In this document: piece after piece, positions 1-6,733 of the stretch | How the letters are laid out: the number at the start of each line of letters is the position of its first letter | How positions within the stretch are numbered: position 1 is the first letter of the stretch | Origin: the human T2T-CHM13v2.0 reference genome, Homo sapiens | Length of the DNA stretch: 64,000 nucleotides | Assembly (NCBI RefSeq): GCF_009914755.1 | Contig: NC_060928.1 | Reading direction: 5' to 3' (one strand) | Notes under the pieces: generated by a model | What the model saw: only the letters and a program-made list of their open reading frames with translations | Databases searched by the model: none | Told to the model about the DNA's origin: nothing | Made by a program: the position numbers and the translations under genes

Positions 1-201
1 TTCTTTTTCTTTCTTTCTTTCTTTCTTTTTTTTTTTTTTTTTTTTTGATACAGAGTCTCGCTCTGTCGCCCAGACTAGAGTGCAGTGGCGCAATCTCGGC
101 TCACTGTAAGCTCTGCCTCCTGGGTTCATGCCATTCTCCTGCCTCAGCCTCCTGAGTAGCTGGGACTACAGGTGCCCGCCACCATGCCCGGCTAATTCTT
201 T
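1..201 (-). mobile_element. AluY right arm plus poly-A tail (first half of an Alu split by an insertion)
   Basis: Poly-T/CTTT tract at 1-46, then the Alu reverse complement with AluY-type AAGCTC...GCCATTCTCC. It stops in the A-rich linker at TGCCCGGCTAATTCTTT. Confidence 0.92.
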
Positions 202-1354
202 TTTTTTTTTTTTCTCTTTAAAAACCACTTTTAATTAAAGACTCGATAGAGTAAGCAGAAATTATTTACATTTTTAATAGAAATTTAGTCATACAATGAA
301 AATGCACTCGAACATTTGTTGATACAAAGACAAGATTTATACTAAGAAGTAGTCAAAAATACCAATTTTATTTATTGATTTATTGGAAAAATAATGTATA
401 TCTTGGAGACTGGAGCAGGCTAAGTGACTTGAAAGCTGCAAGAGAGAAAAAAAGGTAGCACATTTAAGCTTTAAATCTTTTAGACAAAAATATCTAGATA
501 GTATGGTTCTGTTTAGAAACTCAAAGATTTATATGCTATATCTTGAAGCAACTAAAGGACATGGTGAACATTTTTCATATGTCACAAAGTGTTTTATATT
601 TTTGCTTTAAGGGACAAATTAGCAATATTTGGAGACTTCACAATAACTTTGTGGGGAGAGCTAGGGCATTTGTAATGAGAAAAATATAGTTTTGCCATGT
701 ATGAAAAAGTAAGTTATAGGCCAGTAAAATGTTTCAGTATCTTGTATACCTAGAAGGACTGCTGTGACAATTGTGCCTGTATAGATCTCATTTATCCTTA
801 AAACCTTCTAGTTTTAAATTGGTACAGACAGTGTCCTTAGTCAAGTAGTACGGTTGGAATATATTTAAATTTTTGTTTATATATTCTGTTTTTGGCCCAC
901 TGCAGAATCTAACAGACAGGTTTTTATAGTTTTCTTTTTTTTTTCAAGGCCAGTATTAAGTAAAATGTAGCAGGTGATCTGATTTTGTATAATTGATAAA
1001 TATTTAGAATGTTAGGTTTTTAGTTAGGAAAAGACCTTATTGATCATCTGCATTTCACCTGCTTTTGCAGATAAAGGACTTGAGACACAGGAAAATTAAA
1101 TATTCTAGTTCCACTAGAAGTGAGCTATCTGACTGTCAATATGTGTATTTCCAATAATCTCTGCTGCACCTTATCTTACAATATCTGTGCTAAAATGTAA
1201 ATGTAACCAGGTAGAGAATTACCATTGACTCACTGTTGATGTGGTTTCAGTAATTCAGCAAACCAGAATCCTGAGTCAAGTATCATGTAGTAGGTAAGAG
1301 AAGAGAGAGGGAAGGAAATCTAGGCATGGGATGTTCAGTCTGTTACTGTAAGAA

Positions 1355-1530
1355 TTGCTCTGGTCTTGGAGACAAAGGGCCTGGGATTCAGTTTTGACAA
1401 TGCCACTTATTAACTGTGATTTTAGAGCAAAACCCTAAATTCTCCAACCTTCAGTTTCTTTATATATGAAATGGGAATAAACATTGTTGCGGTACTTACT
1501 TCTAGGTTAACTGTGAGAATCAAGGCCACT
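1355..1530 (+). mobile_element. MIR fragment inside the retroposed segment
   Basis: MIR core-like CCTGGGATTCAG...GCCACTTATTAACTGTGA...CTTCAGTTTCTT...AAATGGGAATAA. Confidence 0.7.
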
Positions 1531-1544
1531 GTGAGAGTCAGTTT

Positions 1545-1620
1545 CTAGTTTACCAACATTTATTTGCTGTTACTATGTGCTAGGCAATATTGTAGCCTTC
1601 AACAATACAAAGACAATGGA
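1545..1620 (-). mobile_element. L2 3'-end fragment inside the retroposed segment
   Basis: CAACATTTATTTG...TACTATGTGCTAGGCAATATTGTAG resembles the reverse-complemented L2 3' end. Confidence 0.5.
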
Positions 1621-2302
1621 AACTTTTATAACATATTACAAAAGCCTAAAAACTAAGAAGTAATATTTAGCAGGAAGTCTGATTGATATCGTTCATAAAT
1701 ATTTAGAATATTTTTTTTTAATTTGGAAAAGACCTTAGTGTTCAAGAGAGACTTTTGTCTCCTTAGTCTTCAAAGAGATTACAACTTGGAGAGATGATCC
1801 TTTAGGCAAAAAGCCTTATGATATAGTTGATTGAGATTGTCATTATAATAACAGCAGTTTTACAAGCTGTTAACTAATCTAGGATTGAAGAGAGGAAAGG
1901 AATGTCAGCAGTACATCAAAAAGGAAGAATATAATTTTCTTAGAAGTAGAGGAATGAGTGTTTTTTCATTTTTATTATTTTGCTTTAAGCCAGCTGCATT
2001 ATGTGATACCATCTTGTTTGCCCTTCTGCTAGAGACCAAACCACCCCTACCACTGTTTTAGTAAACAAGAGATTGAATAACCTTAGTTCAGTCAAGGATC
2101 TCACCTTTTCTTGCCCTAAAGAGTTATTTGGCTTCATTGAGATTTTGACTGTCAGTTTTAAGATTCATAAATTTCTAGCAGTCTGTGTGGATTATTCTAG
2201 TGTTACTATTTAAGGAAATGATGACCCTCTAGTGACAGGTTTTCTGATTGTAAGCTATTTGCCATTTATAATCCTGCTATATGTTTTTGCACTTATATTT
2301 GT

Positions 2303-2732
2303 GGTGTTTTATGCATTCTAAGATGTCTATTTTTTCATATTTGAACATACCTGAAACTGGGATGCTTCTTTGAATTGATGGACTCAAAATCCATGTTGGG
2401 TAGGTGGTGGTTTTGATGGAGTTGTTATCTGTGCATGTGTGAATGTGGTCATAATGTCAAAGTTTAATTGAGTTATATGCACTTCAGGTATTCTGATGAT
2501 TCCCAAATCCTATGATTTAGGCTTAGAAGGATAAGTAATATATACTCATCTATCTACATGAGAGGCATGGGGCAGAACAGTGGAATATATGATACAGATA
2601 TCCAAAAAATGAAATCTAATTGATAAAAAAGCATTATGTCTTAGTTTAATTGGCAGCCTTTTTGCTTCTAGGGATATATAAATAGTAAACTTATATCATA
2701 TAATGATGGTGCTTTGGATTCATTCATATTTG
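2303..2732. mobile_element. TcMar-Tc2 (MER104/Kanga-like) DNA transposon remnant inside the retroposed segment
   Basis: Left end CATTCTAAGATG...TTTTTCATATTTGAACATACCTGAAACTGGGATG and right end AGTTTAATTGGCAGC...GATGGTGCTTTGGATTC resemble MER104 termini. Confidence 0.55.
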
Positions 2733-3583
2733 GATTCAAAATATTGATGCTGCAGTATTTTATTTTGAGTAATTTGAATGGGATGACTTATGACTTAATG
2801 GAAATTTTAGGAAAGCCTGTTTATGGAAGGTGGATCAAAAGTCATACTTTTAATGATAGATTCTGTCAAGGGATACTTTTAAAGAAAGGTTAAAATCATG
2901 TCTTTTATTCAAATGTAAAAAGAATGGGTATCAAAGACTTTATTAAGCTCATTAATTAATGAGGGGATCAGTAAGATGTTACAAATAATTCAAAGGAGAA
3001 TTTTAAGAGCACACATATATGGGCAATCAAGGATGCTGAAATGAATGTGAAACAGACGCAAAACTGGTTAATAGCCACAGGCCAATTATCCATTTCATTT
3101 CACTGGACACAATTTATTTGCATTTTTATGGAAAAGAATTGTTTGTATTATTCTGTGCCTTACAACTACATGGTTGTAAAGTAGCAGAAAGACAATGTGA
3201 GGCTCATATTCTGACTGACTCAGATAATCTGGAAGGGTATACTAGATAGGACATCCACTAATATTTTGCATATTTCAGTGTTTCACAATTTTCCTGACAA
3301 ATCTTAAAGGTTAGAAGTTTTCCTGATAGACTTTGTATCAAATTTTAATTTCATGGGAAGGGATCATGTTTGTAGATCCCTTAATTTTAAAGCTTTTTTT
3401 TAAGTTTCTCTTTACCCAAAAATATAATCTGGATTAAATTCAATTTACTGACCCAAAGATATAAATGAGAAATTCAAAACCATTAACACTCTAACACAGC
3501 TAGATGGAATGATGAATGATTAAGGGAGAAACCATAAGAAAACATCAGGTAATCATCTTTCTAGCATGGTCTGAATGAAATCC

Positions 3584-3725
3584 TGCCCGGCTAATTCTTT
3601 GTATTTTTAGTAGAGATGGGGTTTCACCGTGTTGGCCAGGATGGTCTCGATCTCCTGACCTTGTGATCCGACCTCCTCGGCCTCCCAAAGTGCTGGGATT
3701 ACAGGTGTGAGCCACCGTGCCTGCC
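3584..3725 (-). mobile_element. AluY left arm (second half of the split Alu)
   Basis: GTATTTTTAGTAGAGATGGGGTTTCACCGTG...GGATGGTCTCGATCTCCTGACCTTGTGATCCG...GAGCCACCGTGCCTGCC continues the Alu from position 201. Confidence 0.92.
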
Positions 3726-3734
3726 TAGATCATC

Positions 3735-3915
3735 ATTCTTCTAAGGAGCATGAAACCTAGATCCCTCGCATGGACATTTCACAATAGGGTTCACACTCCT
3801 ATGAGAATCTGATGCCACCGCTGATCAGACAGGAGATGGAGCTCGGGCGGTAATGCTCACTCGCCTGCCACTCACTTCCTGCTGTGTAGCCCAGTTTCTA
3901 ACAAGCCACAGATAA
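3735..3915. mobile_element. MER1 (hAT-Charlie) fragment
   Basis: AACCTAGATCCCTCGCATG...CACAATAGGGTTC...CTCCTATGAGAATCT...GCTCGGGCGGTAATGCTC matches MER1A/B. Confidence 0.8.
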
Positions 3916-4901
3916 TACCTTGAGGTTTAAGCTCTGTAGATTAGCTTTGACCCTGCTTGTACATTATATAAATATATAAATGGAATCTTATAGTACATAT
4001 TCTTTTGTGTCTGGCTTCTTTCACTCAATACTGTGGAGAGATTCATCCATGTGGAATGTTGCTACACATGTTTATTTCATGGCTACATAGTGTTACATTG
4101 AATAAATATACTAGAATATATTTGTTCTACTGTTGATAGACACTTGAATTTTCTCTAATTTGAGGCTATTAAGAATAACAGTGCCATAAGCACTTTGTAA
4201 ATGTCTTTCAGTTCACATTTGTACACACTTCTGTCAGGCGCAGATCTACAAATGGAATTGCTGGGTGATATGATATGCAAACATACAGCTTTAGTAGATA
4301 CTGGCAAACAGTTTTCCAAAGGGATTATACCAATTTACACTCCCATTAGCAGTGACTTCGAGTTCCAGTTGCTCTGTCCATATCCTTTACAATACTTGAC
4401 ATATGAGTCGTTTTGTATTTTGACCATTTTGTTTGATATGCAGTGGTATTTCGTTTTAGCTTTAATTCGTGTCTCCCTGAAAGTTAGCAAGACTAAATTT
4501 GCCTATCTTAAAATCAAGTTTTCTGTCGTATTGAAAAAATTGATTTTTCTAAGTTCTTGATATACTCTCAATGTGAATTCTTTCTTTGTTATATTTATTG
4601 CAAATAATACCTCTGAGACTTGCCTTTCACTTTCTTAATTTGTCTTGTGATAAACAGGAGTTCTTAATTTTAACGTGGTCTAATTTCTCAATTTCTTAGT
4701 CTTTTCTTTTATGGCTAGTGCTTTTTGTGCTCTGCTTAAGAAACTTTTGCCTACCCAAAAGTCATAAAAATACTAACATTATTTTTTTAGAAACTCTATT
4801 TTTTCTTTCATACTAATCTTCAATTCACCTAAAATGGTATTTAGTATGAAGGAAGGGTTAATATTTTTCACTATGGATATTCTACTGACTCAGCATAATT
4901 T

Positions 4902-5229
4902 CTTTTTTCTTTTCTTTTCTTTTTCTTTTTTTTTTTTTTTTATTAGAGACAGAATCTCACTCTGTCACTCAGGCTGGAGTGCATTGGCACTATCTTGGCT
5001 CATTGCAACCTCTGCCTCCTGGGTTCAAGTAATTCTCATGCCTCAGCCACCCAACATAGGTGGGATTACAGGCGTGTGCCACCGAGCCAGTCTAATGTTC
5101 ATAATTTTAGTAGAGATAGGGGTTTTGCCATGTTTGTCAGGCTGGTCTTGAACTCCTGGCCTCAAGTGATCAGCCAACCTTGGCCTCCCAAAGTGCTGGG
5201 ATTGCAGGCGCGAGCCACTGTGCCTGGCC
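4902..5229 (-). mobile_element. Alu (Sz/J-like), full length
   Basis: Alu reverse complement; TSD TGACTCAGCATAATTT at 4886-4901 and 5230-5245. Confidence 0.9.
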
Positions 5230-5558
5230 TGACTCAGCATAATTTATTTTAAAAAACAGTTTTCCCTTGTTTACAGTAGCAACATGGTAATAAATCAAGC
5301 ATCTATATATGTGTGGGTCTTTTTCAGAATTGTTTTTAACTACATTGGTCTACTTGTCCATGTTTACTCCAGTTCCACAGTTTTAATTATGGTACCTTTA
5401 TAATTTATATTGATATCTTGTAGTATAGGTCCTCTGACTTCGTCTTTTCTTCATCAATATTGTCTGGGTTTTTTTTGTGGCTCTTTGCAATTTCAAGTAC
5501 ATTTTATAATGAACTTGTTAAATTATATGAAACATTCTACTGGTATTATACCTGGTAT

Positions 5559-6186
5559 TGTGAGAAACAAACCTACCTGTCCAAACCCAAAGAATGGACT
5601 CAGAGACCTGGAGAACAGCGAAAGTGAAACTTTTAATGATGCTCTTGCAAGAATTGGGTGTCTGATGTGCAGGCACACACAGCACAGTTTTAACAAGCAA
5701 TTTAACTCCTAGTGTGCAGGTCCCTCTCCCGGTTTTTCATAGGCTGAATACTAGGGGGTCACAATCTTCCTGGACGTCACCTATTGATTGTTGGGCAGGG
5801 GCTTTAGGTGTTTTGTTTGTTTTTAGGGTTGTTTTGCGGCATTTTGTTGCAGCCCACAATGCATTGCAATCCTAGTTAGCTCAGGGGCTCTTCAAGTATT
5901 TACTTATGAGCTAAGTAGCTGGGCAGGCTAATAAAAACAGACAAAACGAACTATTTTGCAGGCTAGTAAACTTTTATCTTAGACTAAACTTCTTTGGTTC
6001 TGGTGAAGGCAAGGAAACAGGGTTGTGGAGGCGGAGTGGGGGAGGGGGAGGCCAACAAGCAGGCATGGGCTATCCAAGCAGGGGCCTAGTATGTTCTGTT
6101 TCTTCTGTAGTTTGCTAACGTAAGTCTATTTAAGGCACTTCGTCTTGGAAATGGACCATGGGCCATTGTATACATTATTTCCTTCA
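5559..6186 (-). mobile_element. ERV solo LTR (ERV1-like, family not assigned)
   Basis: TG...CA termini, 4-bp TSD GTAT (5555-5558 and 6187-6190), minus-strand ATTAAA near 5632, higher GC than the flanking L1. Confidence 0.8.
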
Positions 6187-6733
6187 GTATTGGAGATACT
6201 CTTTATAGAATAATTTAAAAATAATATACATGTTTATGGTATTGAATGTCTTCCTTTTATTTAGGTCTTTTGAAATTTTTTTAAATAATGTTTCATATTT
6301 TTTGTGTAGAGTTTTGCACATTTGTTAATTTATTTCTAGATATTTGGTCTTTTGATATAATTGTTAATGATATAATTTTTAAAATATCATTTTTAATCAC
6401 TTATTGGTATATAAACAGAGATTTTTCATATTGACCTTGAACTCTGTGATTTTTCTAAATTCATTTAATCACAATAATTTTCCTATGGATTATCTTGCAG
6501 CTTGGATATAATACAATCTATAAGTAATGACAGTTTTTCTTTCTAATCTTTATATGTATTATTTTTCTTGCATTATTATACATGCTAGGATCTTTTTCCT
6601 ACCAATGTTAAATAAAACTGTTGTTAATAAGGGGAACCTGTCTCCTTTGCAATGTCAGATAAAAAGTTTTCAATATTTCTCCATTAAATATGATATTTAT
6701 CATAGGTTTTTGAAAATGCTTTTTAAAGGTATG

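What the first reader, a model, noticed from the sequence alone, without database searches (positions are those of the whole stretch)
185..3600. 3.4-kb non-L1 polyadenylated segment retrotransposed into the linker of an AluY
Seen: one AluY is cut in its A-rich linker and resumes in register 3.4 kb later. TGCCCGGCTAATTCTTT is present at both junctions (185-201 and 3584-3600) and includes a non-consensus C, so that mutation predates the insertion. The left junction has a T-tract (minus-strand poly-A) preceded on that strand by ATTAAA. The site CTTT/GT resembles the L1 endonuclease target TTTT/AA. Known: a TSD, poly-A and endonuclease site together are the marks of L1 target-primed reverse transcription. 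Inference: the cargo has no L1/SVA body or ORF but contains MIR, L2 and MER104-like pieces much older than AluY. It is therefore a copy of pre-existing DNA from another locus: a 5'-truncated long 3'UTR or lncRNA retrocopy, or an orphan 3' transduction. ORF-based pseudogene annotation would probably miss it. I do not recognise the source gene.
Basis: partly seen in the sequence, partly recalled or inferred. Interest (0 to 1): 0.8.

Follow-up and report, generated by a model that had tools for sequence, protein, structure and literature searches.

The report
Orphan L1 transduction splitting an Alu
A 3.4-kb stretch of chromosome 7 DNA lying just downstream of a full-length L1 element was copied through RNA into an Alu repeat beside the glycophorin E gene, probably within the last few million years; it is a clean but ordinary example of a known process.

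Summary
An Alu on the minus strand is split by a 3,382-bp insertion. The insertion has exact 17-bp target-site duplications (185-201 and 3584-3600), a 12-nt A-tail (202-213 on the minus strand) and an ATTAAA 16 nt before the tail. The two paralogous glycophorin repeat units carry the same Alu uninterrupted, which gives an internal empty site.

The source is chr7:112773009-112776372, plus strand, with 13 differences in 3,366 bp. It has no A-run at the 3' end, so the copy went through polyadenylated RNA.

The source starts 3.0 kb and ends 6.3 kb downstream of a full-length L1, 98-99% identical to its nearest copies, on the same strand. That L1 has two other offspring:
- a 5'-truncated L1 carrying a 43-bp 3' transduction at chr7:85.96 Mb, which is older (12 differences in 489);
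- a 175-bp orphan copy at chr3:38.70 Mb that used another poly-A site.

Best reading, about 0.75: an orphan L1 3' transduction about 1-3 million years old. Main rival, about 0.2: a retrocopy of an independent non-coding transcript. This is a new member of a known kind, of low to moderate interest.

The parts
1..46 (-). A-rich tail of the host Alu, seen on the plus strand as (TTCT)n followed by a T-run
   Evidence: Read directly.
47..201 (-). 3' part of the host Alu (right arm up to the A-rich linker)
   Evidence: Sequence read. It aligns to the uninterrupted paralogous Alus: window 22-209 matches L017 1193-1381 at 91.0% and L018 1192-1381 at 90.5%. Calling it Alu and placing the break in the linker rests on my recall of the Alu consensus. 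The subfamily (AluY) was not tested.
185..201 (.). Left copy of the 17-bp target-site duplication
   Evidence: Exact repeat of 3584-3600. It is present once in each paralogous empty site.
202..213 (-). Untemplated poly-A tail (12 T on the plus strand)
   Evidence: The chr7 source has TCAAAAGAC... at this point rather than an A-run.
230..235 (-). Poly-A signal ATTAAA, 16 nt upstream of the cleavage site
   Evidence: It corresponds to the hexamer at chr7:112776351.
214..3361 (-). Non-inverted cDNA, a copy of chr7:112773224-112776372 (plus strand of chr7)
   Evidence: blastn identity 99.62%: 11 mismatches and 1 gap in 3,149 columns.
3362..3366 (.). 5-nt filler at the inversion junction
   Evidence: Not present at either source breakpoint.
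3367..3583 (+). Inverted 5' segment, a copy of chr7:112773009-112773225 in the opposite orientation to the rest of the insert
   Evidence: 1 difference in 217. It was found on the opposite strand. It overlaps the non-inverted part by 2 bp in source coordinates.
3584..3600 (.). Right copy of the 17-bp target-site duplication
3584..3725 (-). 5' part of the host Alu (left arm)
   Evidence: Sequence read. Window 3584-4500 aligns to L017 1357-2266 at 95.0% and to L018 1357-2265 at 94.2%.

Best explanation
This is an orphan L1 3' transduction with a 5' inversion. The inferred steps are as follows. A full-length L1 at chr7:112764005-112770034 (plus strand) was transcribed from its own promoter. The transcript ran past the L1's own poly-A signal and was cleaved and polyadenylated 6.3 kb further on, 16 nt after an ATTAAA at chr7:112776351. 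L1 endonuclease nicked the plus strand of chr4 inside the A-rich linker of an Alu, at TTCTTT/GT. The T-rich end primed reverse transcription on the poly-A tail. After the second strand was cut 17 bp away, its 3' end annealed inside the same RNA and primed a second cDNA (twin priming). Joining the two cDNAs left the 5'-most 217 nt inverted, added a 5-nt filler and left no L1 sequence in the insert. What is shown: the direction of copying, the RNA intermediate, the duplication, the empty site, the inversion, the position of the source behind a full-length L1, and that this L1 produced a true 3' transduction. What is inferred: that the RNA started in the L1, and whether the proteins came from this L1 (cis) or another L1 (trans). 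The element is probably inert where it sits, 5.5 kb from the nearest annotated exon.
For: - The source was found and the direction is fixed. The chr4 copy has a duplication, an A-tail and paralogous empty sites. The chr7 locus has no A-run.
- Inversion: window 3367-3583 matches chr7:112773009-112773225 on the opposite strand and abuts the 5' duplication. The two segments overlap by 2 bp in the source. Four of the last 5 nt of the duplication match the source where the inverted cDNA starts.
- A 6.03-kb L1 lies on the same strand 2,974 bp upstream of the first copied base. Its 5' end is complete and it has 14-bp duplications of its own. Pfam finds the ORF1 domains, the endonuclease and the reverse transcriptase.
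- Partnered offspring: chr7:85960472-85960960 holds an L1 3' end, an A-run, 43 bp of this L1's flank including its own duplication copy, a second A-tail and a 15-bp duplication.
- Second orphan copy: chr3:38698050-38698224 equals chr7:112772008-112772182 on the same strand (174 of 175). It has an A-tail, a duplication and an AATAAA at 112772163.
- The field assigns orphan transductions to a full-length L1 when the source lies within 10 kb downstream (passages of bioRxiv 10.1101/179705 and of PMC12350158).
- No splice junction lies within the 3,364 copied bases. No coding-looking frame other than those of L1 was seen in the 20 kb upstream.
Against: - No call shows a transcript starting in the L1. 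No annotation or expression data for chr7 were available here.
- The read-through had to pass 29 AATAAA or ATTAAA hexamers, and 6.3 kb is a long read-through.
- In this assembly the L1's ORF2 carries one stop and one frameshift.
- The partnered offspring differs from the source at 12 of 489 positions, against 13 of 3,366 for the chr4 copy (Fisher p = 1.7e-5). The L1's proven activity is therefore several million years older than this event. That points to mobilisation in trans or to an unusually long-lived source.
- The cleavage site CTTT/G is one mismatch from the TTTT/G motif used in PMC12016303.
- The genome searches score only the best 40 candidates, so the sibling counts are lower bounds.
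Confidence: 0.75

Rival explanations
1. The insert is a retrocopy (processed-pseudogene type) of an independent RNA polymerase II transcript. This would be an unannotated lncRNA or long terminal exon on the plus strand of chr7, probably antisense inside an IMMP2L intron, mobilised in trans by L1 proteins. The upstream L1 would be a bystander.
For: The copy is polyadenylated at a genuine signal and co-linear with the genome, as a 5'-truncated terminal exon would be. The L1's ORF2 is broken in this assembly, and its proven transduction is much older than the chr4 event. Twenty-nine hexamers were bypassed. 5' inversions also occur in processed pseudogenes, 3 of 23 in PMC12016303.
Against: Two independent retrocopies (chr3 and chr4) and one partnered transduction all come from the 6.4 kb directly downstream of one full-length L1, on its sense strand. 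By my rough estimate from recalled counts of full-length young L1s, under 1% of the genome lies in such a position. No splice junction and no exon-like frame were seen. Even on this reading the L1 promoter would be the most obvious driver of the transcript.
Confidence: 0.2
2. The insert is a DNA-level duplication, such as a templated insertion during break repair or a small segmental duplication, with no RNA intermediate.
For: The 5-nt filler and the inversion could in principle arise in replication-based repair.
Against: The copy ends exactly 16 nt after ATTAAA and carries 12 A that the source lacks. It is flanked by a 17-bp duplication at a T-rich nick site. The inverted piece is the 5' end and is adjacent to the rest in the source, as twin priming predicts.
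Confidence: 0.02
3. Two independent half-Alus flank native DNA, so nothing was inserted.
For: None found.
Against: Both paralogous repeat units have one continuous Alu with a single copy of the 17-mer. The intervening 3.4 kb exists at only one other place, chr7.
Confidence: 0

Closest known systems
Orphan L1 3' transductions (Solyom et al. 2012, seen only as a reference-list citation and otherwise recalled; somatic cases in bioRxiv 10.1101/179705; 48 polymorphic germline cases in PMC12350158)
   Same: Unique sequence from within 10 kb downstream of a full-length L1, on its sense strand, retrotransposed without any L1 body. It has an A-tail, a target-site duplication and a T-rich cleavage site. 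The same source also gave a partnered transduction.
   Different: The source L1 is not one of the young, currently active elements. Its nearest copies are 98-99% identical, and its ORF2 is broken in this assembly. The read-through is long (6.3 kb). The insertion sits in a reference assembly and has about 0.4% divergence, so it is not a recent polymorphic or somatic event as far as could be tested.
Twin-priming 5' inversions of L1 insertions (Ostertag and Kazazian 2001, cited within PMC12016303)
   Same: The inverted segment sits at the 5' end next to the duplication. The inverted and non-inverted parts are adjacent in the source with a small overlap (2 bp). There is microhomology where the second primer annealed.
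   Different: Both cDNAs lie wholly in transduced, non-L1 sequence. The inverted arm is short (217 nt) against a 3,148-nt non-inverted arm. A 5-nt filler lies at the junction.
Processed pseudogenes and lncRNA retrocopies
   Same: The enzymatic route is the same (L1 proteins acting on a polyadenylated RNA) and so are the hallmarks.
   Different: There is no intron loss, no coding sequence and no known parent gene. The source lies directly behind a full-length L1.

Membership tests
L1-mediated (target-primed reverse transcription) insertion | Target-site duplication flanking the insert | tested here: met
   17-bp exact repeat at 185-201 and 3584-3600. It is single-copy in the two paralogous empty sites.
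L1-mediated (target-primed reverse transcription) insertion | Untemplated poly-A tail at the 3' end, downstream of a poly-A signal | tested here: met
   12 A are absent from the source, and ATTAAA lies 16 nt upstream.
L1-mediated (target-primed reverse transcription) insertion | Cleavage at an L1 endonuclease motif (TTTT/A, TTTT/G or TTTC/A, as used in PMC12016303) | tested here: inconclusive
   The site reads TTCTTT/GT, which is CTTT/G, one mismatch from TTTT/G. The exact cut is ambiguous by up to 3 nt because the duplication starts with A on the sense strand.
L1-mediated (target-primed reverse transcription) insertion | An empty pre-insertion site exists | tested here: met
   Met through paralogues, not orthologues: L017 and L018. 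Orthologous primate sites could not be reached with these tools.
Orphan L1 3' transduction | Source sequence lies within 10 kb downstream of a full-length L1, on the same strand | tested here: met
   The source spans 2,974 to 6,338 bp downstream of the L1's last base at chr7:112770034. Both are on the plus strand.
Orphan L1 3' transduction | No L1 body in the insertion | tested here: met
Orphan L1 3' transduction | The source L1 is a demonstrable progenitor (other transductions from the same locus) | tested here: met
   One partnered 43-bp transduction at chr7:85.96 Mb and a second orphan copy at chr3:38.70 Mb. The partnered event is older than the chr4 event.
Orphan L1 3' transduction | The RNA started at the L1 promoter | not testable with these tools
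   No expression data or transcript-start data were available. The L1 5' end is complete.
Orphan L1 3' transduction | The source does not overlap annotated exons (rule in PMC12350158) | not testable with these tools
   No chr7 gene table was available. No coding-looking frames other than L1's were seen in 30 kb.
Twin-priming 5' inversion | An inverted 5' segment abuts the 5' duplication and is contiguous in the source with the non-inverted part | tested here: met
   Window 3367-3583 equals chr7:112773009-112773225 inverted. The non-inverted part starts at 112773224.
Processed pseudogene | Intron loss relative to a parent gene | tested here: not met
   The copy is co-linear with 3,364 bp of genomic DNA apart from the inversion.

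The most novel reading that the evidence does not exclude
An old L1 whose ORF2 is now broken, and whose own proven retrotransposition dates to roughly 6-12 million years ago, kept supplying promoter-driven read-through RNAs. These were still being retrotransposed, probably in trans by younger L1s, about 1-3 million years ago. On this reading a coding-dead L1 can remain a long-lived donor of orphan transductions. The chr4 product would be a hominin-specific, possibly polymorphic marker unique to the GYPE repeat unit of the malaria-relevant glycophorin cluster.
Probability: 0.35. Interest if true: 0.45.

Novelty: new member of a known kind. Interest (0 to 1): 0.3.

Why it matters
This is a fully resolved example of L1-driven shuffling of non-repeat DNA. 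It has a source, a product, an empty site, an inversion junction and two sibling events of different ages.

It shows that ORF-based or repeat-based annotation leaves such insertions unlabelled: RefSeq lists nothing at 185-3600. It also adds 3.4 kb of sequence found in only one of the three glycophorin repeat units, where paralogue-specific markers help genotype structural variants.

The age gap between the siblings bears on how long a single L1 locus can keep producing mobilisable RNA. None of this changes current understanding of the mechanism.

Tried and rejected
- **Protein-coding parent:** no stop-to-stop frame above 73 aa overlaps the insert. No non-L1 coding-looking frame was seen in 30 kb around the source. 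A coding gene's 3'UTR is therefore unlikely.
- **More siblings:**
  - An Alu-free query of the first 2.4 kb downstream of the L1 gave only the chr3 and chr7:85.96 copies and a local 94% duplicate (40 of 45 candidates scored).
  - The 3' 2.6 kb of the source gave only chr4 (14 of 14 scored).
  - The 77-bp tag gave only chr7:85.96 (2 of 2 scored).
  - The 4 kb beyond the poly-A site gave nothing close, but only 40 of 7,153 candidates were scored and Alu hits filled the list.
- **Near-identical L1 offspring:** the last 1.2 kb of the L1 has no copy above about 99% among 40 of 5,476 candidates scored. This is not exhaustive.
- **Locating IMMP2L:** a Peptidase_S26 search gave two chr7 minus-strand hits at 112.20 and 112.28 Mb, both below the curated cut-off. 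Placing the source in an IMMP2L intron therefore rests partly on recalled gene coordinates.
- **Literature:**
  - Four full-text searches were sent. One search was an input error that was corrected.
  - Passages were read in PMC12016303, PMC12350158, PMC7325229, PMC4862182, bioRxiv 10.1101/179705 and bioRxiv 10.64898/2026.06.06.730619.
  - Coordinate look-ups in the held supplements of PMC12350158 (3 files) and PMC13174262 (6 files) found no mention of this insertion or its source.
  - None of the 10 papers listed contains IMMP2L.
  - Supplements that were not held, such as full structural-variant call sets, could still list the insertion.
- **Repeat family names** (MIR, L2, MER104, AluY, L1PA2 versus L1PA3): no repeat library was available, so these are untested. 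The L1PA2-like label rests on a recalled 3'UTR trinucleotide diagnostic and on 98-99% identity to the nearest copies.
Full report
**1. What is in the window**

Positions 1-46 are a (TTCT)n and T-run. From position 47 the sequence reads as the reverse complement of an Alu (identification by my recall of the Alu consensus).

The Alu stops at 201 and resumes at 3584. The 17-mer TGCCCGGCTAATTCTTT is present at 185-201 and again at 3584-3600, exactly. With up to 2 mismatches the window holds 3 matches against 0.01 expected, and 0 of 100 shuffles reached 3.

Twelve T follow the left copy (202-213). On the minus strand this reads as a body ending ...ATTAAA, then 16 nt, then A12, then the duplication.

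No stop-to-stop frame overlapping the region exceeds 73 aa. The body is 32% G+C and has no meaningful similarity to a full-length L1 at DNA or protein level.

**2. Empty site**

The window lies at the edge of the three-fold glycophorin repeat. A search with window 3725-6700 found two paralogous stretches, chr4:147365940-147368904 (96%) and chr4:147255967-147258923 (95%).

In both, the Alu is continuous. One copy of the 17-mer, including the non-consensus C, is followed directly by GTATTTTTAG. Window 22-209 and window 3584-4500 align to adjacent, overlapping coordinates in each paralogue.

So the C predates the repeat-unit duplication, and the insertion happened in one unit only, after the duplication. 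[quoted passage not shown]

**3. Source and direction**

The assembly holds the insert body at exactly one other place.
- Window 3361..214 (minus strand) equals chr7:112773224-112776372 (plus strand), with 11 mismatches and 1 single-base gap in 3,149 columns.
- Window 3367-3583 equals chr7:112773009-112773225 in the opposite orientation, with 1 difference in 217.

At the 3' end the source continues ...AAAGAG TCAAAAGAC..., whereas the copy has ...AAAGAG followed by A12. The tail is therefore untemplated. The copy went through a polyadenylated RNA made from the chr7 plus strand. Chr4 is the product, because it has the duplication, the tail and the empty sites.

**4. The inversion**

The 5'-most 217 nt of the insert are inverted and abut the 5' duplication. 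In source coordinates the two arms overlap by 2 bp (112773224-112773225). A 5-nt filler (window 3362-3366) separates them. Four of the last 5 nt of the duplication match the source where the inverted arm starts.

This is the anatomy expected from twin priming. Published rates of 5' inversion are 18.4% (165 of 897) for germline L1 insertions and 3 of 23 for processed pseudogenes (PMC12016303, passages).

**5. What lies upstream of the source**

A 6.03-kb L1 lies on the plus strand at chr7:112764005-112770034.
- Its 5' end is complete and it has an A-tail.
- The 14-mer AAGAACAGGGAAGA flanks it on both sides as a target-site duplication.
- Pfam finds the three L1 ORF1 domains, the endonuclease fold and the reverse transcriptase in its frames.
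- ORF1 is open. ORF2 has one in-frame stop and one frameshift in this assembly.
- Its last 1.2 kb is 98-99% identical to its nearest copies, among 40 of 5,476 candidates scored.
- A recalled 3'UTR diagnostic also suggests an L1PA2-like element rather than the youngest human subfamily. No repeat library was available to test this.

The copied segment starts 2,974 bp and ends 6,338 bp downstream of the L1's last base, on the L1's sense strand.

**6. Siblings**

(a) Partnered transduction at chr7:85960472-85960960. From 5' to 3' it holds:
- a 5'-truncated L1 3' end;
- an A-run;
- 43 bp identical in order to chr7:112770036-112770078, which includes the copy of the source L1's own target-site duplication. 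That fixes the direction of copying;
- a second A-tail;
- a 15-bp duplication.

The tag ends shortly after the first downstream AATAAA, at 21 bp beyond the L1's last base. A search with the 77-bp tag region found only this copy (2 of 2 candidates scored). This is a partnered 3' transduction, so the chr7 L1 was a real progenitor.

(b) Second orphan copy at chr3:38698050-38698224. It equals chr7:112772008-112772182 on the same strand (174 of 175). It has an A-tail, a duplication of at least 14 bp and an AATAAA about 12-15 nt before the tail.

Three independent retrotransposition products therefore derive from the sense strand of the 6.4 kb behind one L1, using three different poly-A sites.

**7. 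Dating**

The chr4 copy differs from its source at 13 of 3,366 positions, or 0.386% (Poisson 95% interval 0.21-0.66%).
- At 1e-9 substitutions per site per year on each lineage this gives 1.9 million years (1.0-3.3).
- At 0.5e-9 it gives 3.9 million years (2.1-6.6). The rates are recalled values.

The partnered sibling differs at 12 of 489 positions, about 2.5%, significantly more (Fisher p = 1.7e-5). Three of its roughly nine L1-part differences are at CpG sites.

The L1's proven own activity is thus several-fold older than the chr4 event. Either the locus stayed competent unusually long, or its read-through RNA was later mobilised in trans. The broken ORF2 fits the second, but it could also have broken recently.

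**8. Weighing the readings**

The field's operational definition of an orphan transduction is met: unique sequence from within 10 kb downstream of a full-length L1, retrotransposed without L1 (bioRxiv 10.1101/179705; PMC12350158). PMC12350158 reports 48 orphan against 878 partnered polymorphic transductions.

Evidence against the L1 read-through reading:
- no transcript-start evidence;
- 29 bypassed AATAAA or ATTAAA hexamers;
- the long 6.3-kb read-through;
- the age gap between the siblings;
- the broken ORF2.

The main rival is an independent plus-strand transcript. Weak Peptidase_S26 exon hits on the chr7 minus strand at 112.20 and 112.28 Mb, together with recalled gene coordinates, suggest the source sits antisense in an IMMP2L intron. 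Host-gene read-through on that strand is therefore not an option.

The clustering of three products behind one L1 on its sense strand is hard to explain if the L1 is a bystander. My odds are 0.75 for L1-driven read-through, 0.2 for an independent transcript, and about 0.02 for any DNA-level route.

**9. Comparison and novelty**

Mechanistically this is a textbook combination of target-primed reverse transcription, 3' transduction with loss of the L1 body, and twin priming. The specific insertion and its source were not found in the papers and held supplements searched. RefSeq annotates nothing there. It is a new member of a known kind.

**10. Not done**

- No orthologous primate sites or human population data could be consulted.
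- No chr7 annotation or expression data were available.
- No repeat-family naming was possible.
- The genome searches score at most 40 candidates per query, so the absence of further siblings is provisional, especially where Alu hits filled the list.

Noticed in passing
L013:1501-1675 (chr3:38698050-38698224): A 175-bp orphan retrocopy of chr7:112772008-112772182 with an A-tail and a target-site duplication of at least 14 bp. It is a sibling of the chr4 insertion. Its cleavage site reads as T-run/G on the bottom strand.
   Followed up: yes
L022:7472-7960 (chr7:85960472-85960960): A 5'-truncated L1 carrying a 43-bp 3' transduction from the chr7:112.77 Mb L1. It has two A-tails and a 15-bp duplication.
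   Followed up: yes
L022:3249-5021 (chr7:85956249-85958021): A second, unrelated L1 3' fragment 2.4 kb from the transduction-bearing copy. Its two arms are in opposite orientation and meet at nearly the same L1 coordinate (about 96.6% identity to the chr7 L1). This looks like another twin-priming 5' inversion.
   Followed up: no
L010:162-314 versus L010:7315-7467 (chr7:112763162-112763314 and chr7:112770315-112770467): A 153-bp stretch 280 bp downstream of the L1 has a 94% identical copy about 690 bp upstream of the L1, in the same orientation. No other copies were listed genome-wide. Probably a local duplication that predates the L1 insertion. Unexplained.
   Followed up: no
window 3350-3375: The 5-nt filler at the inversion junction, together with its neighbours, forms a short inverted repeat (6 nt on each side, 8 nt apart) with the end of the inverted arm. 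This could be a trace of snap-back synthesis during joining, or chance.
   Followed up: no
window 2853-3302: An old dispersed repeat inside the cargo. Thirty-eight other genomic matches at 68-80% identity were listed among 40 of 358 candidates scored. The family was not determined.
   Followed up: partly
window 4896-5232 and 5554-6190: Two adjacent repeat blocks just right of the Alu have many genomic copies at 75-85% identity, often found next to each other elsewhere. The family was not determined.
   Followed up: no
L011:3409-3700 (chr7:112776409-112776700): An Alu begins 37 bp downstream of the poly-A site used by the chr4 copy.
   Followed up: no
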